Part shown: positions 3,845 through 33,141 of the stretch, piece after piece | How the letters are laid out: each line of letters opens with the position of its first letter | Position numbering within the stretch: position 1 is the first letter of the stretch | Origin: Candidatus Spyradenecus faecavium | Lineage (GTDB): Bacteria; Verrucomicrobiota; Kiritimatiellia; RFP12; DVOR01 | Length of the DNA stretch: 33,240 bases | Direction of reading: 5' to 3' | NCBI GenBank assembly: GCA_018713405.1 | Contig: DVOR01000156.1 | Span: 1-33,240 of the forward strand | Position numbers and translations under genes: made by a program | Notes under the pieces: generated by a model | Told to the model about the DNA's origin: nothing | What the model saw: the letters and a program-made list of their open reading frames with translations, nothing else | The model's database searches: none

Positions 3845-3939
3845 GGCAGGTTCCTTTCTATGATTGAAGAGGCCTATAGTGTAAACCTTGGAGCGCGCAC
3901 CACGTCAAGCCTTCTTTCCACGGGGAGGGGCCGCGCGTC

Positions 3940-5934
3940 TCAGCGCCGCAACAGGCGGTCGAGGAGGGGCTTGCGGAAGGGCAGGTCGAAGAAGGCCCTG
4001 GCCTCGGCCAGGTTCATGATGACGAGCTCGCGGGACTTGCGCGCCTCAAGGGTCTCGGGGAGCTCCTTCAGGATGCGGTCGGCCTCCCACGTGGCGCCGG
4101 CGTCGTACTGGAGGCGGTTGAAGCGCTCGGAGACGTCGAAGGCCGCGCGGTTGGTCTCCCAGGCGGTGCGGATGGTCTTGATGGCGTAGCTGCCGGTCAC
4201 CTTCTCGCTGAAGTAGTCGTCCAGCGTGAGGGGGCGGACGTAGCCTGGCAGGGTGGGCGTGTGCGCGGCGAAGAGGCCCACCAGGATGCGCGAGGACTCG
4301 GCCAGGATGTCCGGCGCGCTTTCGGAGGCGTCGTCCTTCATCTCCTCGAGCAGGCGCGAGACGACCTCCATCATGCGGCGCAGGTACTCGCGGTAGAGCG
4401 CCGTGCCGATCTCGCGCTGGACGGTGCGGACCACGCTGCTGCGCATGACCTCGGTGTTCGTGAGCCCCGCCTGGACGCGGCAGATGACGGTGCGGCGGAT
4501 GACCTCCGGCGCGACGGCCTTCACGTCCTCGTTCGCGCTGATGACGACGGCGGGGTAGTGCACGAGGCGCTCGGCGATGCCGAAGTCGTCGTTCTTGATG
4601 GTCTCGATGGCGTGTTGGTTGAAGCGGGTGTTGGTGAGGTCGTCCACGATGATGGGCGCGCCCTTCACCGTCCGCTTCAGCCCCTCGATGCTCGAGCGCG
4701 TGAACTCCGGCGCGGCGAGCTTGGTCTTCTGCCCGATCATCATCTTCAGCAGCGTCTCCAGGAAGCTCGTCTTCCCCGCCTTGCTCTGCCCATAGACAAG
4801 CCCGAAGACGGGATACGGCAGGAGGTTCTGGTTGTGGCGCACGGCCATGTCGCGCATCACGGCCATGAACGGCGAGCAAAAGAACCAGTTCGCGAACTCG
4901 AAGTAACGCCGCTGCATCCCCTCCACGTCGCCGTGGAACTTCTCATAGCCGTCCATGTACCGCAGGAAAAGCCCCACGTCGCGGGCCACCTCCTCCTCCG
5001 CCGGCGCGAGGTCGAGCGTCGCGTCGTTCAGGCGCACCAAGCCCTCGTCCTGGAAAATCTCAAGCTTGGGGTACTCACTCCGCACCTCCCGCTCCTTGGC
5101 CAGGTCCGCCGCCACCTGCCGCCGGATGGTCTTCACCTTCTCGGGCGCGAGGACCAGCCTCCCCTGCTTGTCCGGCTTGGGCACCGCCGGCGCGAGCCGC
5201 GTGGCCAGGTTGCGCACGTCCAGCATGAAGCGCACCTCCTCCCGCGCCTCCGCCACCGGCTCGATGACCAACGCGTTCCGTACCCGCACCGTCTCCGCGA
5301 CGGGCAACGCCTCCAGGTTCTCCCCCGCGTCCGCCGTCGCCAACGCCTCCCGCGCGATGCGGTCCGTGCTCGCCTCCTTCAGCTGCTCATAGACCCCCGC
5401 GTACCACTCATAGGCCCGCTCGCCGTCCACATAGCAGATGTTCTCCCGCTGGACGCCCCCGAACGCCGCGAACGACAGGTTGGCCGACCCCATCACCACC
5501 CGCCTGCGCCCATCCTTCGCCGCGAGCAGATAGAGCTTCTCGTGCGAGAGCGCCGCGCGCGCCACGAAGAGCCGCAGCGTCCCCGCCTCGATGCGCCCCA
5601 CCAAATCCACCTTCGCCTTGCCCGCCGTCTCCTTCAGTCGCTCCAACGTCTTGCACTGGTACGCCATCACCTCCTGCAGGGAAAAGGACATCACCTCCTC
5701 GCACCCGAAGATGACCTCAGCCTCCTCGAAGAGCCCGATCAGCCGGCACGCGAACCCGATCCCCGAGGAATACGTGATGGCCCGCAACGAATCGAACCCC
5801 TCGAACAGCTCCCGCCACGACAGCGTCTCCGCCCCCTCGAAGGCGAGCCGCACCACATCCAGCTTCCCCTCACCGCGCACGCGCTCCTCCGCGCCGCCGA
5901 ACAGCGAAAGCTCCTCCTCGTCCTGCCGCCTCAT
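3940..5934 (-). CDS. PLD-family (HKD-like) nuclease domain fused to an SF3-helicase-like P-loop NTPase; function unknown
   Basis: 664-aa ORF with GGGAGG 8 nt upstream of the ATG. N-terminal region has ...SHEKLYLLAAKDGRRRVVMGSANLS (HxK...GSxN, one copy, non-canonical spacing). C-terminal half has Walker A GQSKAGKTS, Walker B APIIVDD and a motif-C-like VVISAN. GC is visibly lower than in the flanking lar genes. Confidence 0.6.
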   Translation of the reverse strand: MRRQDEEELSLFGGAEERVRGEGKLDVVRLAFEGAETLSWRELFEGFDSLRAITYSSGIGFACRLIGLFEEAEVIFGCEEVMSFSLQEVMAYQCKTLERLKETAGKAKVDLVGRIEAGTLRLFVARAALSHEKLYLLAAKDGRRRVVMGSANLSFAAFGGVQRENICYVDGERAYEWYAGVYEQLKEASTDRIAREALATADAGENLEALPVAETVRVRNALVIEPVAEAREEVRFMLDVRNLATRLAPAVPKPDKQGRLVLAPEKVKTIRRQVAADLAKEREVRSEYPKLEIFQDEGLVRLNDATLDLAPAEEEVARDVGLFLRYMDGYEKFHGDVEGMQRRYFEFANWFFCSPFMAVMRDMAVRHNQNLLPYPVFGLVYGQSKAGKTSFLETLLKMMIGQKTKLAAPEFTRSSIEGLKRTVKGAPIIVDDLTNTRFNQHAIETIKNDDFGIAERLVHYPAVVISANEDVKAVAPEVIRRTVICRVQAGLTNTEVMRSSVVRTVQREIGTALYREYLRRMMEVVSRLLEEMKDDASESAPDILAESSRILVGLFAAHTPTLPGYVRPLTLDDYFSEKVTGSYAIKTIRTAWETNRAAFDVSERFNRLQYDAGATWEADRILKELPETLEARKSRELVIMNLAEARAFFDLPFRKPLLDRLLRR

Positions 5935-6042
5935 CCGTTCCGCCTCCCATCCTGTGTTCTCATGTCACAAGCATACCATATCCCACCCCAACCGTGCCAA
6001 AGAATCCTCCCCACGCCCCCAAACACCCCAAAGGGCCCCGGG

Positions 6043-6216
6043 CGAAACCCTAAGGGGGCCGAGGCGAAACCCTAAGGGGTTCGACCCAAAACCCTAAGGG
6101 TTTCGAGGCAAACCCTTAAGGGTTTCGGAAAAAGATGTGGACTTATGCAGAATCGGCCCCGGGGTGGGGCCGATTCGGAAGTGTGGAAGCTTGGAGGGTT
6201 GGAAGTTTGGTTGTGT
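6043..6216 (+). repeat. Composite repeat, copy 1: four palindromic units at exact 22-nt period (6043-6128), an 11-bp-stem hairpin (6150-6176), and a 5-unit 8-nt tandem array GGAAGNTT (6177-6216)
   Basis: Units CGAAACCCTAAGGGGGCCG / CGAAACCCTAAGGGGTTCG / CAAAACCCTAAGGGTTTCG / CAAACCCTTAAGGGTTTCG start at 6043, 6065, 6087 and 6109. Hairpin is GAATCGGCCCC-ggggt-GGGGCCGATTC. Array is GGAAGTGT GGAAGCTT GGAGGGTT GGAAGTTT GGTTGTGT. Near-identical to the reverse complement of 18322-18488. Confidence 0.9.
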
Positions 6217-6257
6217 CCTTGCGCGCCTTCGTGTCTTCGCGGAGAAGCGCACCGGGG

Positions 6258-18321: not shown

Positions 18322-18488
18322 CCAAGCCTCCAAACTTCCAAACTTCCAAACTTCTCGAATGGGCCGCCAAGCGGCCCATTCGAAATAAGTGCTGATGATT
18401 TTCTGAAACCCTTAAGGGTTTGCCTCGAAACCCTTAGGGTTTTGGGTCGAACCCCTTAGGGTTTCGCCTCGAACCCTTTAGGGTTTCA
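18322..18488 (-). repeat. Composite repeat, copy 2 (inverted relative to copy 1): 8-nt array CCAAGCCT/CCAAACTT x4 (18322-18353), hairpin (18357-18381), four 22-nt-period palindromes (18403-18488)
   Basis: The reverse complement of 18403-18488 reads ...GAAACCCTAAAGGGTTCGAGGCGAAACCCTAAGGGGTTCGACCCAAAACCCTAAGGGTTTCGAGGCAAACCCTTAAGGGTTTCAG. From the second unit on this is almost base-for-base identical to 6061-6127. Hairpin is GAATGGGCCGC-caa-GCGGCCCATTC. Confidence 0.9.
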
Positions 18489-18548
18489 TCTCTGGCGCTT
18501 TTGGGAAAGCGGCCCGGGAAAGAGACGTGGCGCACCGCGACGGCCACG

Positions 18549-28173: not shown

Positions 28174-29559
28174 TCACGAGGCGGGGCGGAGGTCGTTCCA
28201 GATGGCACGGAAATGGGTGAGGAGGGCCTCGCGGCGGGCGGCAATCACCTCGTTTGAGAAGGAGGTCGGCAGGTCGTAGAGCAGGTCACGGATGTCGGTG
28301 GAGAGCTTGGCGCGGGCGCTCTCGCTGGCCCAGAAGTCCGGCTTGCCGAACACGCCGCGCACGGTCGCCAAGATTTGCTTGGCCACCCGCTTGGCCTTCG
28401 CCATGTCCTCCTTGGAGAGCGCGACCCCACTGCGGATCACGTCATAGACCGCCAACTCCTCCTCGCTCTCGAATCCCTCCCGCACATAACGGTTCTGCTC
28501 CTCCGTCAGGCGCTTGGAGAGCTCCAGCAATTCCAAGAAGAGCCGTTCGGTGGCCTCGGGGTCCTGGCAGGCGTTGTAGGCCTCGGCGAGCGCCTCGTAG
28601 GCCTTCAGGAAGTCGGTGCGGACGGGGTTCTTGCGCGCGAGCGCCGTCGCCTTGGCCTTGATCCGCTCCAACACCTCCTCCATCATCAGGCGCTTGTGCG
28701 AACTTCGCCGGAAGGCGTCGGCCAGGCGGCCGAAGTCGATGGCGGAGAGGTCGAGCGGCTCGGCGACGGCCTTGCCCGTGTCCGTCTCGACATGGACATA
28801 GGCGTCGACGATCCGTTGGATGGTGGCGGAGAGGTCCGTGACGTCAATCTCGCGCCGGCGGCTCTCGAAGAAGGCCGAGATGGCGCGGTGGGCCTCCCGT
28901 TCGTCGATTTCCTCCTCCGTCAGGCTCTCTCGCCCGATGAGCGCCGCGGTATGGGTGAGCATCCGCACGGCGGCGAGATAGGCCGCCTTGTTCTCGGCGC
29001 TTTGGCTGACGGCCTCAGCGGCGTCGGCCAACGCCTGCAGGCGCTCCGTGGCCGTCACCGCGCCGAAGAGCCGCTCAATCGCGAAGCCACCCTCCTCCAG
29101 GCGCCGCGTGGCCTCGGCCAACGCCTCGCGGAAGCGCGCCACGAGCGCGTCCAAATCTTGGAAGGGATCCTGCCCCGCCGCGCCCGCGACGTTCGTGTAG
29201 TCGGCCAACGCCTTGCGGAGGGCGTCGACGATGCCGATGTAGTCCACCACCAGCCCGCCGACCTTCCCGGCGTCCACGCGGTTCACGCGGGCGATGGTCT
29301 GCATCAGCGTGTGGGCCTTCAGCGGCTTGTCCAGATAGAGGCAGCTCAGCGGCTTCACGTCGAAGCCCGTCAGCCACATGGCGCAGACGAAGACCAGCCG
29401 TAACGGGTCCTCGCGGTCCTTGAAGCGCTTGTCCAGCCGCTTCTGCTCCATGAGGTCCCGATGCGGGCGGATGTCCAGCCCATGCTTCTCGAAGACGGTC
29501 TCTTCGCCCTGCGCCTTGCTCACCACCACGGCCATCTCGGTGTCTTCCATGGAAGCCAT
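28174..29559 (-). pseudogene. hsdR: Type I restriction enzyme R subunit, C-terminal ~460-aa remnant (5'-truncated)
   Basis: ...TEMAVVVSKAQGEETVFEKHGLDIRPHRDLMEQKRLDKRFKDREDPLRLVFVCAMWLTGFDVKPLSCLYLDKPLKAHTLMQTIARVNRV... is the helicase motif VI region plus the C-terminal helical domain of HsdR. The nuclease, Walker A and DEAH regions are absent. High-GC sequence ends near 29560 where the low-GC cassette begins. The first ~23 codons of the track ORF are junction sequence. Confidence 0.8.
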
Positions 29560-29662
29560 CTCTGACGAAATCCGACATATGTGATACGCTAAGTTGCACG
29601 AAACGCTGAGCGACAAAATAAGCGGCAAAAGGAGTTGCGATTAAGATGTTTTAGTATCCCCC

Positions 29663-31006
29663 TTACAGACTCTTATTCTCTCCGTCATTGGGTTCAAACA
29701 ACGTCAATTGGCACGCGATTGGCGGCGTGGCACGCTGAGAGCTTCCACCCCCGTTCGCCTCATCTTCCATCGCTTCCAGAAGACGTTTTCCCATGCGCGT
29801 AATGAGGGGGACGACAAGTGCATTCCCCATCGCAAAGTAACGGAACTTTTCAGGCACGCCAGGTACATCTGTCCATCCATCAGGGAAGCCGTTCAAGCGT
29901 TCACATTCCACGGGTGTGAGGATACGTAAACGTCCGGTTTGTGCGTCAGTGATAACGTGGGATGATCGGTTGACAGATCCCTCACTGGTGAGCATCGTCC
30001 TCGCAGGAAGTTCAAGCGCATCTGGAAATCGTACAGGGCCTTCCGAGAAGAAGTAGGGGTCTCCGTTTGGCTTGACGCGGGGGATACGCTTTGCGCCCTT
30101 TAAGAATTTCCATTTATCCAGAGCTCCATTGAGGAAGAAACGGGCCGGAACTTCATCTGTCAATCTGATTTTCCCAAGCGGCGTTGGAGGTTCGTGGACA
30201 GGGGTTGTCTCAAAGGAAAGGACTTTCCCATCAGACATCACGCCAGCTGAATAAAACGGAGCAGCGAACGAGTCTGAGACATTTGCCAAATCTGGGAATT
30301 CCACCGGACCGACAGAGGTCTGCGTGTATTTACGTTCATCTGCCATATCCCCCTCAATAGGGAAAGCCTTCGCGAAGAAGCCATCGTGCAAAATAGTGTC
30401 TTTCAGCGCATAGTCCGCATCTTCCTTAATGTGATTCGCCAAGGCTTCACCTAAGGCTGTATCTTTTCGATAAGCGAAAATAAACGTCCGACGGCGTCGT
30501 TGAGCGTTTCCATAATCCGCAGCATTGACGACTCGCCATTCCACAGCATAGCCTTGGTCAAGCAGGCAACGCAGAATGACTCCAAAATCTCGGCCTCTTT
30601 GTTTTGTCGGGGACTTGAGTAGCCGGTCGACATTTTCCAATAGTACGTATTGGGGATGATGTTCCGTAATGACATCATTAATCGACCACCACAAGACCCC
30701 TTTTTTGCCTTCCATCCCTTGCGCACCGGTTCGCGCTACGGAATAATCCTGACAGGGGAAACCGCCGACAAGTAAGTCGTGCTCTGGGATTTCATTTTTG
30801 ACAAGGGCAATGTCTTGGTTTACGTGGTTCGGTCCAGCCCCAAAGTGATGAGTATAACAGGTGAACGCGTGTTGAACTGTTTTCCCAGGTTCCCACTGGT
30901 TTGCCCAAACTGTCTTGAATCGTTCAGAAACTTGTTCAAGGCCAAGACGGAATCCGCCGACCCCTGCGAACAATTCCACCACGCGAATATCTTTGTTTTC
31001 TCTCAT
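29663..31006 (-). CDS. DNA (cytosine-5)-methyltransferase, probable partner of the Sau3AI-like enzyme
   Basis: 447-aa ORF with C5-MTase motifs I VVELFAGVGGFRLG, IV GGFPCQDYSVA, VI LLENVDRL, VIII QRRRRTFIFAY and X AMGNALVVPL. ATGA overlap with the upstream endonuclease gene (31003-31006). Confidence 0.92.
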   Translation of the reverse strand: MRENKDIRVVELFAGVGGFRLGLEQVSERFKTVWANQWEPGKTVQHAFTCYTHHFGAGPNHVNQDIALVKNEIPEHDLLVGGFPCQDYSVARTGAQGMEGKKGVLWWSINDVITEHHPQYVLLENVDRLLKSPTKQRGRDFGVILRCLLDQGYAVEWRVVNAADYGNAQRRRRTFIFAYRKDTALGEALANHIKEDADYALKDTILHDGFFAKAFPIEGDMADERKYTQTSVGPVEFPDLANVSDSFAAPFYSAGVMSDGKVLSFETTPVHEPPTPLGKIRLTDEVPARFFLNGALDKWKFLKGAKRIPRVKPNGDPYFFSEGPVRFPDALELPARTMLTSEGSVNRSSHVITDAQTGRLRILTPVECERLNGFPDGWTDVPGVPEKFRYFAMGNALVVPLITRMGKRLLEAMEDEANGGGSSQRATPPIACQLTLFEPNDGENKSL

Positions 31007-32394
31007 TGCCTTGCCCCAATCACCTGTTCGATGTATGGCTTGTTAAACCAGAAGCCTTGTTTGGTGATAGTGCGACCATCCGGCAACAAATCTGTGTCCA
31101 ACCCGTCATGTCCATGTGGGCGTACATGGGCAATACGATTGTCTTTGGATTTGGGCAAGTCATTCTTAGTCCCGTTTCCTTTCTTCCAAAGTCTCACGCC
31201 ACGGCGAATGGTTTGACGCGTTTGCTCCCATACTTTACTGACTTCATTCAAATCAGACTCCGGCATATGCCAGAAAACTGTTCGCCAAAGCCGAATTTCT
31301 CCGTCCTTTCCTTCTTTAAAAACCACAAAGAAGAACTTTCGAGTTCGCAACAATTCTCCGAATCTTGATTCTTCCCATGATGGTTCTTCCAGCAATTCCG
31401 CGATTCGGAAGGCGGGAAAGGAAATGTGCTCCTTCATTCGACCGTTCTTATTGACGAAAACAGTTTTTGCATAAATCCCAGCCTTTTGGAACTCTTCTGT
31501 ATCCGTCAATGGTCCCTTGATACCATAAATTGCAGAAACAATTTGAGCACGAACGTTTTTGGCTTTTCCACTAAGACCAAAATGAGACTCAAGCGCCTGT
31601 TGTGTCCACCCAATGTAGGGACGAATCATATCTTGGATATAATCCTCAAACCGACTCTTCAAGGCAGAGGCGTCACGAATAAGTTTCTCATCCGGGGCCT
31701 TCCCAAATGCTTGATTGATAACACGTGTCATATACGTTGCCTTTAACGCATAAGCTCTTTGCATGGCAAGAATCGGTGAATATGGTTGGCGACGTAAAGT
31801 GGCGTTGTTTGGGCCTTTGGGGCAAGCCGAAAGATAGGTTGTTTCTGCTTCAGACAACAGGTGTGCCTCCCCCGCACGAATTTTCCCGACAATCCACGCC
31901 CAATCCTGCTCGATGATCTTTAAATCTTCATATGAAAACTGATGCAAAAATGCGGCTGCAATACGAAAGTCCGCACGTTGTACGTCTTTCTTGTACTCAT
32001 ATGGCAGAATCAGCATTGTTTCGCATTTCTTCCAAAACGAACTATCAAAGAAGTTGGCCTTCTCTGCCTCCTCCATATAGTCAATGATATTACAGACCAA
32101 CCTCTCTTTTGCCCGAATCTTCTTATCCTTTCTCCGGACAAACGGTGTTACCTTCAGTTCTACTTTTGCCTCTGGAAAGTCATATTCCGCACGACTGTTT
32201 GGCGAAAAACCAAACCAACCTTCTTCTACGACTTGTCCTAGACTTCCTTTGTTGCCAGTGTGCGACAATCGTCCGTGGATATCCAGTTCCCCAAACGTCT
32301 TACCTACCACGCCTTTCGCGCGCGCCAACACTTCTTCTTTTGTCTTGTACTGTCCATTCATGACACTCATTATACCGCAATCAATAAGAATCAT
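31003..32394 (-). CDS. Sau3AI/MutH-family type II restriction endonuclease (predicted GATC specificity by family)
   Basis: 463-aa ORF. ...VGKTFGELD...DFPEAKVELKVTPF...AKERLVCNIIDY...IIEQDWAWIVGKIRAGEAHLLSEAETTYLSACPKGPNNATLRRQPYSPILAMQRAYALKATYMT...FFFVVF...HVRPHG... is colinear with my recollection of Sau3AI (two MutH-like halves). The start could instead be M9 (32370) or M12 (32361). Confidence 0.85.
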   Translation of the reverse strand: MILIDCGIMSVMNGQYKTKEEVLARAKGVVGKTFGELDIHGRLSHTGNKGSLGQVVEEGWFGFSPNSRAEYDFPEAKVELKVTPFVRRKDKKIRAKERLVCNIIDYMEEAEKANFFDSSFWKKCETMLILPYEYKKDVQRADFRIAAAFLHQFSYEDLKIIEQDWAWIVGKIRAGEAHLLSEAETTYLSACPKGPNNATLRRQPYSPILAMQRAYALKATYMTRVINQAFGKAPDEKLIRDASALKSRFEDYIQDMIRPYIGWTQQALESHFGLSGKAKNVRAQIVSAIYGIKGPLTDTEEFQKAGIYAKTVFVNKNGRMKEHISFPAFRIAELLEEPSWEESRFGELLRTRKFFFVVFKEGKDGEIRLWRTVFWHMPESDLNEVSKVWEQTRQTIRRGVRLWKKGNGTKNDLPKSKDNRIAHVRPHGHDGLDTDLLPDGRTITKQGFWFNKPYIEQVIGARQ

Positions 32395-32972
32395 GCGACA
32401 CTTTCAAGATAACGTCTCGCTTGTAAGGCGTAAAAGTGCTCCTGCGGTGCGAATTTCTGAAGAAAGTATTCGTAGATGCGGCCGAAGACGTCGCCGCCGA
32501 TGGTGTCGAGGACGGGGTCGTTGAAGGTGCGCACCAGGTCGGCCAGGATGGCCGGCGGCAGCTCGCCGTACTGCTTGGGGAGGACGCCCGCGAGATCGGG
32601 GGACTCGGCCTCGATGGCGGCCATGGCGGCGTTCAGCGCCTCGGCCAGGTTTTCGTCTCCCGGCAGGGCCGCCAAACGGTCGTAGCGCGCGGCCTCGGGG
32701 AGCCAGAGCACACCGTTGCCTGTGTAGTCCGCCTTTTCGATGTCGTCGATGTCGCGGGAGCGGCTGTTGGGATTATTCTTTCTCTTCTGCTCCAACTTCT
32801 CCGTCTGCCGGCGGAAGCGTCCCCACGCGTAGCGCAGGAAGATGAGCCCCATCACGGGCATGCAATATTGGCTCGACGTCAGCTTGGAGTTCGAGCGCAA
32901 CGCGTCCGCCGACTCCCAAAGCCGCGCCTCCAGCGCCCTCAGCCGCTCATTCCACGCCATCGTCTCTGCCAT
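32391..32972 (-). pseudogene. hsdM: Type I R-M methyltransferase subunit, N-terminal ~180-aa stub (3'-truncated)
   Basis: From MAETMAWNERLRALEARLWESADALRSNSKLTSSQYCMPVMGLIFLRYAWGRF...GDVFGRIYEYFLQKFA (HsdM_N-type region and the start of the catalytic domain). It then reads into low-GC sequence to a stop at 32391. The AdoMet-binding and NPPF/Y motifs are missing. No hsdS is present. Confidence 0.8.
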
Positions 32973-33141
32973 CGTCGTTCCTTTCCGGTCTTTCCCATAG
33001 GATACCACAACCGCCCACCCACCGTCAGCGGGGCGTTCGGAGGCTTGGCGGCGCCTCCTTTTCCGCGAAGACGCAAAGAGTGCGGGTGCTCCGGCGGGGA
33101 CGGTCCCCGCCGTCCACCCGCCCTTCACGACTTACGGGAAC

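What the first reader, a model, noticed from the sequence alone, without database searches (positions are those of the whole stretch)
3940..5934. Stand-alone PLD-nuclease / SF3-like P-loop NTPase fusion: candidate undescribed single-gene defence or interference module
Seen in sequence: one 664-aa ORF combines an N-terminal single-copy HKD-like motif (SHEKLYLLAAKDGRRRVVMGSANLS; HxK...GSxN with non-canonical spacing) with a C-terminal NTPase. The HKD-like motif is the kind found in Nuc/BfiI/NgoFVII-type nucleases that dimerise to build one active site. The NTPase has Walker A (GQSKAGKTS), Walker B (PIIVDD) and an Asn-containing motif (VVISAN) resembling SF3 helicase motif C. The gene has its own SD, is visibly lower in GC than the adjacent lar operon, sits alone between housekeeping operons, and is preceded by the composite repeat at 6043-6216. 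From established knowledge, PLD nucleases recur in defence systems, but there they pair with SF1/SF2 helicases or sit on separate polypeptides. SF3 NTPases are typical of phage/plasmid primase-helicases. I cannot name a described system with this PLD+SF3-like architecture. Inference: either an NTP-driven nuclease acting on invading DNA, or a domesticated or relic mobile-element replication protein.
Basis: partly seen in the sequence, partly recalled or inferred. Interest (0 to 1): 0.72.

Follow-up and report, generated by a model that had tools for sequence, protein, structure and literature searches.

The report
PLD nuclease fused to ring-helicase motor
This gene encodes one protein that joins a restriction-enzyme-type DNA-cutting domain to a motor resembling the replication helicases of mobile elements; it belongs to a large, widespread and experimentally uncharacterised family that often sits among anti-phage genes, so it is a good but unproven candidate for a new single-gene defence nuclease.

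Summary
The N-terminal part is a BfiI/NgoAVII-type PLD nuclease (H131, K133, N152, E164). The C-terminal 380 aa fold like SCCmec Cch and SF3 self-loading helicases (K388, D431/D432, N468, R481).

No neighbour gene recurs in more than 7 of 77 species-level loci, so the gene is self-contained. Many loci lie in defence islands (type I/IV R-M, BREX, DISARM, Azaca, CRISPR III). There are no phage hits, and the gene is only cargo on a few plasmids.

In this Kiritimatiellota lineage it is a long-resident gene under purifying selection (GC3 equal to neighbours, dN/dS about 0.07). The low-GC clue and the upstream repeat clue both fail.

New here: the disordered N-terminal tail carries a motif like the β-clamp-binding consensus (ELSLF in this protein; QLSLF and similar elsewhere), about 75-fold enriched across the family.

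Best reading: an NTP-driven, ring-forming PLD nuclease acting on foreign or replicating DNA. This is a new variant of ATP-dependent PLD restriction enzymes. The function is inferred, not shown.

The parts
3940..5934 (-). Whole gene, 664 aa: PLD nuclease fused to a Cch/SF3-like helicase (Pfam PF27394 'Aq_aa27' family)
   Evidence: ORF. The identical protein P0001 carries PF27394. The full-length architecture is conserved in 969 representatives at 50% clustering.
5943..5947 (-). Shine-Dalgarno sequence GGAGG, 8 nt upstream of the ATG
   Evidence: Read directly from the sequence.
5899..5913 (-). aa 8-12, ELSLF: a motif like the beta-sliding-clamp-binding consensus QL(D/S)LF, in the disordered N-terminal tail
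   Evidence: pLDDT is below 50 for aa 1-20. Family-wide enrichment in the first 30 aa: the strict motif Q[LIMV]x[LIM]F is found in 15 of 102 representatives against 0.2 expected, and the relaxed form in 27 against 2. The consensus and its usual location in flexible termini are from PMC6511837. Binding was not tested.
5365..5844 (-). aa 31-190: PLD-superfamily nuclease domain with a single HKD copy, of the BfiI/NgoAVII restriction type
   Evidence: Pfam RE_NgoFVII scores 27.1 bits, above its cut-off, and is found in 66 of 69 family members. Foldseek matches: R.NgoAVII 4rct E=8e-6, the SauUSI N-domain, BfiI and Zucchini.
5443..5544 (-). aa 131-164: catalytic motif H131-x-K133 ... G149-S150-x-N152 ... 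E164
   Evidence: K133 and N152 are invariant. H131, G149, S150 and E164 are at least 90% conserved in 69 sequences.
5083..5364 (-). aa 191-284: helical linker or middle region, function unknown, lowest model confidence (aa 226-232 have pLDDT below 50)
   Evidence: No family or fold match is specific to this stretch.
4825..5082 (-). aa 285-370: N-terminal tier of the helicase module (two short beta hairpins plus two long helices)
   Evidence: C-half model with pLDDT 92.4. This region is aligned as part of the 428-column match to SCCmec Cch 5dgk.
4435..4824 (-). aa 371-500: ASCE/AAA+ ATPase core of SF3 / Cch type
   Evidence: Foldseek matches: 5dgk E=5.7e-6, JCV and SV40 large-T helicases, ASFV PrimPol, B19V NS1, SaPI5 PriRep. 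The PDB profile search hits 5dgk at E=0.011. Pfam SF3-clan hits across family members: RNA_helicase in 13 of 69, plus PPV_E1_C, VapE-like, DUF5906 and DUF927.
4768..4791 (-). Walker A, GQSKAGKT (aa 382-389)
   Evidence: G382 and G387 are at least 98% conserved and K388 is invariant. Translation checked.
4639..4656 (-). Walker B, PIIVDD (aa 427-432)
   Evidence: P427 is 96% conserved. D431 is D in 58 of 69 members, and D432 is D in 59 and E in 10.
4531..4548 (-). Strand VVISAN (aa 463-468): motif C / sensor-1 Asn (N468)
   Evidence: N468 is invariant in 69 sequences.
4492..4497 (-). R480-R481: candidate trans-acting arginine finger
   Evidence: R481 is invariant. Position 480 is K or R in 68 of 69 members. 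The assignment as an arginine finger is an inference from its position, 13 residues after sensor-1 as in SF3 helicases.
3943..4434 (-). aa 501-664: C-terminal helical plus small-beta domain, in the position of the dsDNA-binding winged-helix tier of Cch/SaPI Rep helicases. Candidate target-recognition domain.
   Evidence: Secondary structure and pLDDT above 90. Included in the match to 5dgk. The role of the winged-helix domain in Cch/Rep is from PMC9371898. Its function here is inferred.

Best explanation
The gene encodes a self-contained, NTP-driven nuclease of the restriction/defence kind.

Shown: an N-terminal single-copy PLD (HxK...N...E) nuclease domain of the BfiI/NgoAVII/SauUSI type is fused to a C-terminal module. 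That module has the three-tier layout and catalytic residues of the self-loading hexameric helicases of mobile elements (SCCmec Cch, SaPI Rep, viral SF3 helicases).

Inferred mechanism:
1. The protein oligomerises through its AAA+-like core into a ring. ATP sites form at subunit interfaces, with K388, D431/D432 and N468 acting in cis and R481 in trans.
2. The ring loads on DNA, perhaps guided by the C-terminal winged-helix-like tier and by docking of the N-terminal ELSLF motif on the beta sliding clamp. It then translocates.
3. Single-HKD PLD domains must pair to build one active site (established for Nuc and BfiI). Cleavage would therefore be licensed only when two PLD domains are brought together, either within one ring or between two rings or converging motors.
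4. The cut would be metal-independent and proceed through a phospho-histidine intermediate.

No cognate methyltransferase is linked. Discrimination of self from non-self is therefore probably not by a partner methylase. It may instead rely on DNA modification, structure or replication state. The target is most likely invading or replicating foreign DNA (phage, plasmid, ICE).

In this Kiritimatiellota genome the gene is an old, maintained resident and not a recent import.
For: Architecture and catalytic residues.

Self-contained unit: in 77 species-representative loci no neighbour family occurs in more than 7 loci. The helicase cassette partners seen in some Firmicutes are present in only about 12 of 80 loci and are absent from the window.

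Defence context:
- In Oscillospiraceae the gene lies on integrase-bearing islands next to a SauUSI-like type IV enzyme (PADLOC mREase_IV, E=9e-229), the PDC-S07 NUDIX gene and PDC-S26.
- The +/-1 neighbours include mREase_IV (6), PDC-S41/SLFN helicase (6), type I R-M, BrxL, ZorD, Csm6, GmrSD and NERD.
- The +/-5-6 neighbours include PglZ, BrxH, DrmA/DrmD, ZacB/ZacC and Csm3.

Patchy, horizontally spread distribution: 73% amino-acid identity between Kiritimatiellota and Oscillospiraceae; also found in Acetobacteraceae, Arcobacter, Thermotogota and haloarchaeal plasmids.

Not a replicon gene: 0 of 50,697 phage records and 15 of 72,556 plasmids, where it sits in cargo positions and pATS1 has a separate replication initiator.

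Functional copy: dN/dS 0.07-0.25, with all nine catalytic positions kept in six orthologues.

Precedent: N-terminal BfiI/NgoAVII-like PLD nucleases with swappable C-terminal domains act as single-gene defence systems (END nucleases, PMC12191111). CglI/NgoAVII and SauUSI couple PLD cleavage to ATP-driven translocation (PMC5861437 abstract; Foldseek hit 7clg).
Against: - No experiment exists on any family member that I could find.
- PADLOC v2 gives only marginal hits (mad8 and ZacB, E=0.0014).
- In this window and in several other genomes the gene sits among housekeeping genes with no defence neighbour.
- In this lineage it diverges at the same rate as the adjacent lar genes. That looks more like a stable chromosomal function than a fast-turnover immune gene.
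- The defence-neighbourhood evidence lacks a proper genomic background control. The +/-5-6 'control' was itself defence-rich.
- The closest relatives of the motor are replicative helicases, not restriction motors.
- Ring formation, PLD pairing, clamp binding and target choice are all inferred.
Confidence: 0.55

Rival explanations
1. It is a replication-fork or DNA-repair accessory enzyme of the host. A beta-clamp-docked helicase-phosphodiesterase would process stalled forks, flaps, or covalent or blocked DNA ends. This is Tdp1-like chemistry from the PLD domain with a motor to reach the lesion. It would not be an immune protein.
For: - The N-terminal motif like the clamp-binding consensus is strongly enriched across the family. 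Known clamp partners are replication and repair proteins, including MutL and RecBCD.
- The gene sits alone among housekeeping genes in this window, L008, L098 and L099.
- It shows strong purifying selection and divergence equal to that of neighbouring housekeeping genes.
- Weak Pfam hits to Tyr-DNA_phospho occur in 6 of 69 members.
Against: - The distribution is very patchy, with clear inter-phylum transfer.
- The gene is carried on integrase-bearing islands and large plasmids.
- It is often embedded in R-M, BREX, DISARM and CRISPR clusters.
- The PLD domain is closest to restriction nucleases (R.NgoAVII, BfiI, SauUSI), not to Tdp1.
Confidence: 0.17
2. It is a replication initiator-helicase of a mobile element. 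It would be a functional analogue of the HUH-endonuclease plus SF3-helicase Rep proteins, with the PLD domain serving as a covalent nicking or joining enzyme and the Cch-like ring as the self-loading replicative helicase. The copy in this window would then be a domesticated remnant.
For: - The C-terminal 380 aa are closest to MGE replicative, self-loading helicases: SCCmec Cch, SaPI5 PriRep, PriRep1, viral SF3, and phage DUF927 primase-helicases.
- PLD enzymes work through a covalent phospho-histidine intermediate (established knowledge), as a nickase-ligase would need.
- Some homologues lie on integrase- and VapE-bearing islands.
Against: - There are no matches in 50,697 phage genomes.
- Only 15 of 72,556 plasmids carry it, all large and in cargo positions, and pATS1 has its own replication initiator.
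- No conserved partner such as a primase, SSB, integrase or origin repeats is found. No neighbour family occurs in more than 7 of 77 loci.
- The only nearby iteron-like repeat is a dispersed element that is absent from orthologous loci.
- The solo chromosomal copy is under strong purifying selection, so it is not a decaying remnant.
Confidence: 0.1
3. It is one subunit of a multi-gene system. The unit would be PLD-helicase protein + ~105-aa protein + DUF6998/Mrr-like ~152-aa protein + 758-aa DEAD/ResIII helicase, often behind a SauUSI-like enzyme and a NUDIX gene. The solo copy in this window would then be an orphan that cannot act alone.
For: The cassette is conserved and tightly packed, with overlapping stops and starts, in Gemmiger, Lawsonibacter, Agathobaculum and related contigs. 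The partners have nuclease or helicase signatures.
Against: - Only about 12 of 80 species-level loci have any of these partners.
- The partners are absent from all Kiritimatiellota orthologues, yet the solo gene keeps every catalytic residue at dN/dS of about 0.07.
- The partners could equally be a separate neighbouring system within a defence island.
Confidence: 0.1

Closest known systems
SauUSI (type IV ATP-dependent restriction endonuclease; PDB 7clg)
   Same: Single polypeptide. N-terminal single-HKD PLD nuclease of the same subfamily (Foldseek hit). An NTP-driven motor follows it, then a C-terminal DNA-recognition region. No linked methyltransferase. A SauUSI-like gene is the immediate or near-immediate upstream neighbour in 7 of 77 loci.
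   Different: The SauUSI motor is a monomeric-type SF2 (DEAD/ResIII) helicase, and its reader domain is DUF3427. This protein has neither. Its motor is an SF3/Cch-type ASCE core with a sensor-1 Asn and an arginine finger, which predicts a ring oligomer.
NgoAVII / CglI (R-subunit PLD+B3 domain, H-subunit DEAD-Z1 motor, plus methyltransferase)
   Same: Best structural match of the nuclease domain (4rct, E=8e-6) and best Pfam family (RE_NgoFVII). Cleavage in that system depends on ATP-driven translocation (PMC5861437).
   Different: That system has the nuclease and the motor on separate proteins. Its motor is SF2, it has a B3-like sequence reader, and it has a cognate methyltransferase. None of these is found here.
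END nucleases (END-PaCF1) and BfiI: N-terminal PLD nuclease with a variable C-terminal sensor
   Same: The same N-terminal PLD type. The same modular 'PLD plus swappable C-terminal domain' logic. Single-gene defence was shown for END-PaCF1, which PADLOC and DefenseFinder also missed (PMC12191111).
   Different: Those proteins have no NTPase. Their C-terminal domains are an inactive EndoIII/OGG-like domain (END) or a B3-like barrel (BfiI). Here the C-terminal 380 aa are a complete helicase module.
SCCmec Cch / SaPI Rep / PriRep self-loading helicases (PDB 5dgk, 7ola, 7pds) and viral SF3 helicases
   Same: Best structural and profile match for aa 285-664. The same three tiers: an N-terminal tier, the ATPase, and a C-terminal winged-helix-like tier. 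The same Walker A, Walker B, sensor-1 Asn and Arg pattern.
   Different: Those proteins are replication initiators of mobile elements. They are fused to or partnered with primases and sit next to iteron origins (PMC9371898). This protein carries a nuclease instead. It has no primase partner and no origin repeats, and it is absent from phage genomes.
McrBC and HerA-nuclease defence systems (Sir2-HerA, DUF4297-HerA); Mokosh type II (helicase + PLD)
   Same: Functional analogy only: a ring NTPase or helicase coupled to a nuclease effector in defence. Mokosh type II also puts a helicase and a PLD nuclease in one chain (my own knowledge of these systems).
   Different: There is no homology of the motors. 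McrB is a GTP-specific AAA+ protein, HerA is FtsK-like, and Mokosh uses an SF1 helicase with a C-terminal PLD. The query gave no PADLOC hit to any Mokosh protein (Mko) or McrBC model.

Membership tests
Pfam PF27394 'Aq_aa27' (uncharacterised family) | Significant match to the family HMM | tested here: met
   The identical protein P0001 and all 120 listed homologues carry a precomputed PF27394 hit. The model is not in the local Pfam copy, so I could not see its score or extent.
PLD superfamily nuclease, restriction-type (RE_NgoFVII / BfiI-like) | HxK ... GSxN ... E catalytic motif, single copy | tested here: met
   H131, K133, G149, S150, N152 and E164 are conserved or invariant in 69 sequences.
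PLD superfamily nuclease, restriction-type (RE_NgoFVII / BfiI-like) | Profile match above the curated cut-off, and a PLD fold | tested here: met
   RE_NgoFVII scores 27.1 bits against a cut-off of 23.8 and is found in 66 of 69 members. Foldseek matches 4rct, 2c1l, 7clg and 4gel.
PLD superfamily nuclease, restriction-type (RE_NgoFVII / BfiI-like) | Dimerisation of two HKD domains into one active site; metal-independent DNA cleavage | not testable with these tools
   No multimer prediction or biochemistry is available.
SF3 helicase / Cch-DUF927-type self-loading helicase | Walker A, Walker B, motif C (sensor-1 Asn) and a downstream arginine finger | tested here: met
   K388, N468 and R481 are invariant, and D431/D432 are about 85% conserved.
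SF3 helicase / Cch-DUF927-type self-loading helicase | Fold of the ATPase core and flanking tiers | tested here: met
   The C-half model (pLDDT 92.4, pTM 0.91) matches 5dgk at E=5.7e-6 over 428 columns, then the JCV and SV40 large-T helicases, ASFV PrimPol, B19V NS1 and SaPI5 PriRep. TM-scores are low (0.26-0.38), so the tiers are oriented differently.
SF3 helicase / Cch-DUF927-type self-loading helicase | Significant sequence-profile match to an SF3-clan family | tested here: inconclusive
   The window protein itself has no SF3 Pfam hit. Across the family only sub-threshold or sporadic hits appear: RNA_helicase in 13 of 69 (best E=1.8e-4), PPV_E1_C in 1 (1.4e-5), and DUF927, DUF5906 and VapE in 1-3 each. 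The PDB profile hit to 5dgk has E=0.011.
SF3 helicase / Cch-DUF927-type self-loading helicase | Hexamer formation, ATP-dependent 3'-5' unwinding, motif B' beta-hairpin contacting DNA | not testable with these tools
   K447, which is at least 90% conserved, lies before the 448-462 loop and could be the B' residue. This is an inference only.
SauUSI-type type IV restriction enzyme | SF2 (DEAD/ResIII + Helicase_C) motor and a DUF3427 reader domain | tested here: not met
   No ResIII, DEAD, Helicase_C or DUF3427 hit in the query or in the 69 members. The PADLOC mREase_IV models do not hit the query, although they hit the neighbouring gene at E=9e-229.
NgoAVII/CglI-type R-M system | B3-like DNA-binding domain on the R-subunit, separate DEAD-Z1 H-subunit, linked methyltransferase | tested here: not met
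   No such domains were found in the protein. No conserved partner gene exists. The neighbours in the window are a metallophosphatase and the CbiM-LarBCE genes.
Beta-sliding-clamp client proteins | QL(D/S)LF-type pentapeptide in a flexible terminus | tested here: met
   ELSLF at aa 8-12 lies in a tail with pLDDT below 50. The family-wide enrichment is about 75-fold for the strict motif. The consensus is from PMC6511837.
Beta-sliding-clamp client proteins | Physical binding to DnaN | not testable with these tools
   Needs AF-Multimer/AF3 modelling, pull-down or ITC.
Known anti-phage defence systems (PADLOC-DB v2.0.0) | Significant match to a defence-protein model | tested here: not met
   Only mad8 (E=0.0014, P-loop region) and ZacB (E=0.0014, PLD region) were hit.

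The most novel reading that the evidence does not exclude
The Aq_aa27 family is a previously unrecognised class of immune nuclease. It would be a hexameric, self-loading, replicative-type (Cch/SF3) helicase that was captured from mobile elements and re-armed with a restriction-type PLD nuclease. It would dock on the host beta sliding clamp through an N-terminal QLSLF-type motif. In this way it would find and destroy DNA that is being replicated by the host replisome but is foreign (phage, plasmid, ICE). This would be 'clamp-guided restriction' that needs no methyltransferase.
Probability: 0.2. Interest if true: 0.8.

Novelty: new variant of a known kind. Interest (0 to 1): 0.6.

Why it matters
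ATP-dependent PLD restriction enzymes known so far (SauUSI, NgoAVII/CglI) use SF2 motors. Ring-motor restriction systems such as McrBC use unrelated nucleases.

This family would add a third design: a restriction-type PLD nuclease driven by a replicative, self-loading SF3/Cch-type ring helicase in a single 75-kDa polypeptide. The family is large (about 970 clusters at 50% identity), spans bacteria and archaea, and is abundant in human and animal gut Firmicutes. It is absent from the PADLOC-DB v2.0.0 defence catalogue, so defence annotation based on it would miss these genes.

The putative clamp-binding motif offers a concrete, testable idea for how such an enzyme could find its targets without a methylase. 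A single gene of this size is easy to test. If it is active, it is a candidate tool enzyme: a metal-independent, NTP-gated nuclease.

Tried and rejected
1. NCBIfam, PHROGs and a PDB sequence search with the single protein gave nothing usable.
2. The literature search for 'aq_aa27' returned only false matches in DOIs, and 'PF27394' returned none. Searches combining PLD with SF3, DUF927, Cch or defence found no description of this architecture. The DefensePredictor and 'modularity' preprints do not contain it.
3. The search for related loci with the diverse alignment failed because no conserved 7-10-mer was available. I used the single protein instead, which biases the loci toward relatives at 58% identity or more.
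4. The upstream 22-nt-period repeat could have been an operator or iteron set for this gene. I rejected this: a second copy lies at 18.33-18.50 kb, and the repeat is absent from orthologous loci.
5. Lower GC as a sign of recent transfer is rejected, because GC3 is 0.955, the same as the neighbours.
6. I looked for effector swapping on the helicase module as a defence signature. Only one variant (P0199) has an SPFH/Band-7 N-terminus instead of PLD. Other apparently divergent N-termini still contain PLD or have no hit. The signal is weak and I do not use it.
7. The +/-5-6 gene set was intended as a background control for the PADLOC neighbourhood scan, but it was itself defence-rich. It shows extended islands but is not a control.
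8. The whole-protein Foldseek TM-scores are low (0.15-0.25) because the model has several domains. I re-modelled the C-terminal half alone to get a cleaner answer.


Full report
**1. The observation**

The ORF at 3940-5934 on the minus strand is real: 664 aa with an ATG start. A GGAGG sequence lies 8 nt upstream of the ATG.

The motifs are the conserved core of a protein family, not chance matches. I aligned 69 full-length relatives at 24-69% identity to the query. K133, N152, K388, N468 and R481 are invariant. H131, G149, S150, E164, G382, G387 and P427 are at least 90% conserved, and D431/D432 are about 85% conserved. Pfam's RE_NgoFVII PLD model scores 27.1 bits, above its curated cut-off of 23.8.

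**2. The family**

A word-indexed search found 1,781 homologues. All of those listed carry a precomputed Pfam hit to PF27394, which the gene tables name 'Aq_aa27'. This model is newer than the local Pfam copy. From my own knowledge, the name looks like that of an uncharacterised ORF on an Aquifex aeolicus plasmid.

An exhaustive phmmer search of 1.84 billion representatives at 50% clustering found 969 clusters at E<=1e-3 and 302 at E<=1e-30. Nearly all are 650-690 aa and match end to end down to about 25% identity. The fusion is therefore old and stable.

Source annotations are generic: 'phospholipase D family protein' or 'restriction endonuclease PLD domain-containing protein'. PADLOC v2 has no model for it, giving only E=0.0014 hits to mad8 and ZacB. 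NCBIfam, PHROGs and PDB sequence searches gave nothing.

**3. Domain anatomy**

An AlphaFold2 model of the whole protein is confident (pLDDT 88.2, pTM 0.79).

- *N-terminal part.* Foldseek against the PDB gives R.NgoAVII (4rct, E=8e-6), then SauUSI, BfiI, Zucchini and Tdp1.
- *C-terminal part.* The same search gives ASFV PrimPol, JCV large-T helicase, B19V NS1, E1, D5 and AAV Rep40. Against predicted viral structures the matches are DUF927 proteins, primase-helicases and SF3 helicases at E of about 1e-7.
- *Residues 285-664 modelled alone* (pLDDT 92.4, pTM 0.91). The best match is the SCCmec Cch 'active helicase' (5dgk, E=5.7e-6, 428 aligned columns). The next are JCV and SV40 large-T, ASFV PrimPol, B19V NS1, SaPI5 PriRep and PriRep1.
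- *Independent sequence evidence.* A profile of the family hits 5dgk from Walker A to Walker B (E=0.011). Across the 69 members the only NTPase Pfam families hit repeatedly are SF3-clan ones: RNA_helicase in 13 of 69, plus PPV_E1_C, VapE-like, DUF5906 and DUF927.

Cch and the SaPI Rep proteins are self-loading hexameric initiator-helicases. They have an N-terminal tier, an ATPase tier and a C-terminal winged-helix tier that reads dsDNA (PMC9371898). The second half of this protein has the same three tiers.

The invariant R481, 13 residues after the sensor-1 Asn, sits where SF3 helicases have their arginine finger. That assignment is an inference.

**4.

The first ~20 residues are predicted to be disordered and contain E8-L-S-L-F12. 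Relatives have QLSLF, QLTLF, QISLF, QIGLF, QMSLF, NLSLF and similar at positions 3-12.

I counted motifs in the first 30 residues of 102 full-length representatives:

| Motif | Observed | Expected (shuffles and other windows) |
|---|---|---|
| Strict Q[LIMV]x[LIM]F | 15 | 0.2 |
| Relaxed form | 27 | 2 |
| [LIM]F | 73 | 28 |

The bacterial beta-clamp-binding motif has the consensus QL(D/S)LF and is normally found in flexible termini (PMC6511837). The sequences are related, so the shuffle test overstates independence. Even so, conservation of a pentapeptide in an otherwise unalignable tail argues for selection. Binding to DnaN was not tested.

**5. Genomic context in this lineage**

The window comes from a gut Kiritimatiellota genome. 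The closest loci are MAGs labelled uncultured Kiritimatiellaeota, at 82-93% identity.

The gene sits between a metallophosphatase gene and the CbiM-LarB-LarC-LarE genes. Orthologues at 91-93% keep either the lar genes downstream or a Sua5 gene upstream, while the other flank differs.

The gene's GC3 is 0.955, the same as its neighbours (0.92-0.97). The lower total GC therefore reflects amino-acid composition and not recent import. Its protein divergence (92-93%) equals that of the adjacent lar proteins (82-94%).

dN/dS against six orthologues is 0.07-0.25, with all catalytic residues kept. NG86 estimates are rough at this extreme GC3. It is a maintained, functional, solo gene.

The repeat upstream has 4-5 units of 22 nt with the palindrome AACCCTWAGGGTT, preceded by a GC hairpin and CCAAACTTCC-like repeats. 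It has a near-identical second copy at 18330-18500 and is absent from the orthologous locus. It is a dispersed REP/MITE-like element and not a control region of this gene.

**6. Context elsewhere**

In Oscillospiraceae (Gemmiger, Lawsonibacter, Agathobaculum and others; about 73% identity) the gene lies on integrase- and VapE-bearing islands in a tight cassette. The order is:

- a SauUSI-like type IV enzyme (PADLOC mREase_IV, E=9e-229);
- a NUDIX gene (PDC-S07) or DUF7662;
- this gene;
- a ~105-aa gene;
- a DUF6998/Mrr-like ~152-aa gene;
- a 758-aa DEAD/ResIII helicase;
- sometimes PDC-S26.

Across 77 species-representative loci, however, no neighbour family occurs in more than 7 loci, and the cassette partners are present in only about 12 of 80. 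The protein is therefore a self-contained unit that lands in varied places.

Those places are often defence islands. The +/-1 neighbours include type IV and type I R-M, PDC-S41/SLFN helicase, BrxL, ZorD, Csm6, GmrSD, NERD and Fic. The +/-5-6 neighbours include PglZ, BrxH, DrmA/DrmD, ZacB/ZacC and Csm3. That second set was meant as a control and is not one, so I have no proper background rate.

The gene is absent from 50,697 phage genomes. It is present on only 15 of 72,556 plasmids, all large. On those examined it sits among toxin-antitoxin genes, recombinases and a helicase-methylase-helicase cluster, and pATS1 has a separate replication initiator. Some copies, like the one in this window, lie among housekeeping genes.

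**7. Mechanism**

Shown:
- a restriction-type single-HKD PLD nuclease domain with a complete catalytic set;
- a Cch/SF3-type helicase module with complete NTPase residues;
- a conserved N-terminal motif like the clamp-binding consensus;
- purifying selection.

Established for the parent families (my own knowledge):
- single-HKD PLD nucleases act as dimers with one shared, metal-independent active site and a phospho-histidine intermediate;
- PLD restriction enzymes can be gated by ATP-driven translocation (SauUSI, CglI/NgoAVII);
- Cch, Rep and SF3 helicases form hexameric rings with interfacial ATP sites and self-load on DNA.

Inferred: the protein forms a ring, loads on DNA and translocates. 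Loading may use its C-terminal winged-helix-like tier and possibly the clamp. The protein cuts when two PLD domains are brought together, either within a ring or between two rings or motors. With no linked methylase, self/non-self discrimination probably relies on DNA modification, structure or replication state.

I put 0.55 on 'defence/restriction-like nuclease acting on foreign DNA'. The alternatives are:
- 0.17 for a clamp-associated fork or repair enzyme;
- 0.10 for a mobile-element replication initiator;
- 0.10 for an obligate subunit of the multi-gene cassette.

**8. Comparison and novelty**

The protein works like SauUSI and NgoAVII/CglI (a PLD nuclease plus an NTP motor) and like the END-nuclease and BfiI design (an N-terminal PLD plus a swappable C-terminal module; PMC12191111). 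It fails their membership tests: it has no SF2 motor, DUF3427 domain, B3 domain or linked methylase.

Its motor is related to Cch and SF3 replicative helicases, but it lacks their primase and origin context.

It is a member of the catalogued but uncharacterised Pfam family PF27394. I found no paper describing the architecture or testing a member. The library does not cover subscription journals, so I cannot exclude a description there.

I rate it a new variant of a known kind, with interest 0.6. The case rests on a large, widespread, easily testable family with an unusual motor and a possible clamp link. Its function is still inferred only from context.

Noticed in passing
window 28174-33128 (- strand genes): There is a sharp low-GC block (0.46-0.50 against about 0.70 elsewhere). 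It holds a C5 cytosine DNA methylase (29663-31006, PF00145, E=8e-62) and a MutH/Sau3AI-like endonuclease (31003-32394, PF02976, E=5e-31), i.e. a type II R-M pair. It is flanked by type I R-M pieces: an HsdR C-terminal part at 28174-29628 and an HsdM N-terminal domain at 32391-33128. This looks like a recently acquired R-M cassette lying within or beside a type I locus, about 24 kb from the PLD gene.
   Followed up: partly
window 6020-6225 and 18325-18505: These are two copies of a composite dispersed element of about 170 nt. Each has CCAAACTTCC-like short repeats, a GC-rich hairpin (6150-6176 in copy A), then 4-5 units of 22 nt each holding the palindrome AACCCTWAGGGTT. The central ~85 nt are nearly identical between the copies. 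The element is REP/MITE-like; its family and function are not determined.
   Followed up: partly
L094:2211-7923 (Kiritimatiellia MAG): A distant family member (59% identity) in another Kiritimatiellia genome also lies just upstream of LarB-LarC-LarE. I cannot say whether this is coincidence, an insertion hot spot or old synteny.
   Followed up: no
L010:9615-10001; also L024, L033, L036, L061, L067, L068, L074, L085: A small NUDIX protein (PADLOC candidate PDC-S07, E=2.6e-43) lies immediately upstream of the gene in some Firmicutes, with its stop overlapping the start of this gene. Relatives at 45-52% identity lie 1-3 genes upstream in several Kiritimatiellota and Verrucomicrobiota loci. This may be a recurrent two-gene association.
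   Followed up: partly
P0199 (743 aa, from the representative search): This variant joins the Cch-like helicase half (38% identity over aa 270-655) to an N-terminal SPFH/Band-7 domain in place of the PLD nuclease.
   Followed up: no
L010:11995-15060 and L003:12004-16310: A conserved trio lies downstream of the gene in some Firmicutes: a ~105-aa protein with no family, a ~152-aa DUF6998 protein with weak Mrr/mREase_II similarity, and a 758-aa DEAD/ResIII helicase with a weak N-terminal MTES_1575 nuclease-like hit. It is sometimes followed by PDC-S26 (PDDEXK_4). It may be a separate, undescribed system.
   Followed up: partly
window 3845-3939: The 95-nt gap between this gene's stop codon and the cbiM start codon contains a TTGACG ... 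TACACT/TATAGG promoter-like arrangement when read by eye. This suggests the lar genes have their own promoter. The consensus scan found no promoter in the region.
   Followed up: no
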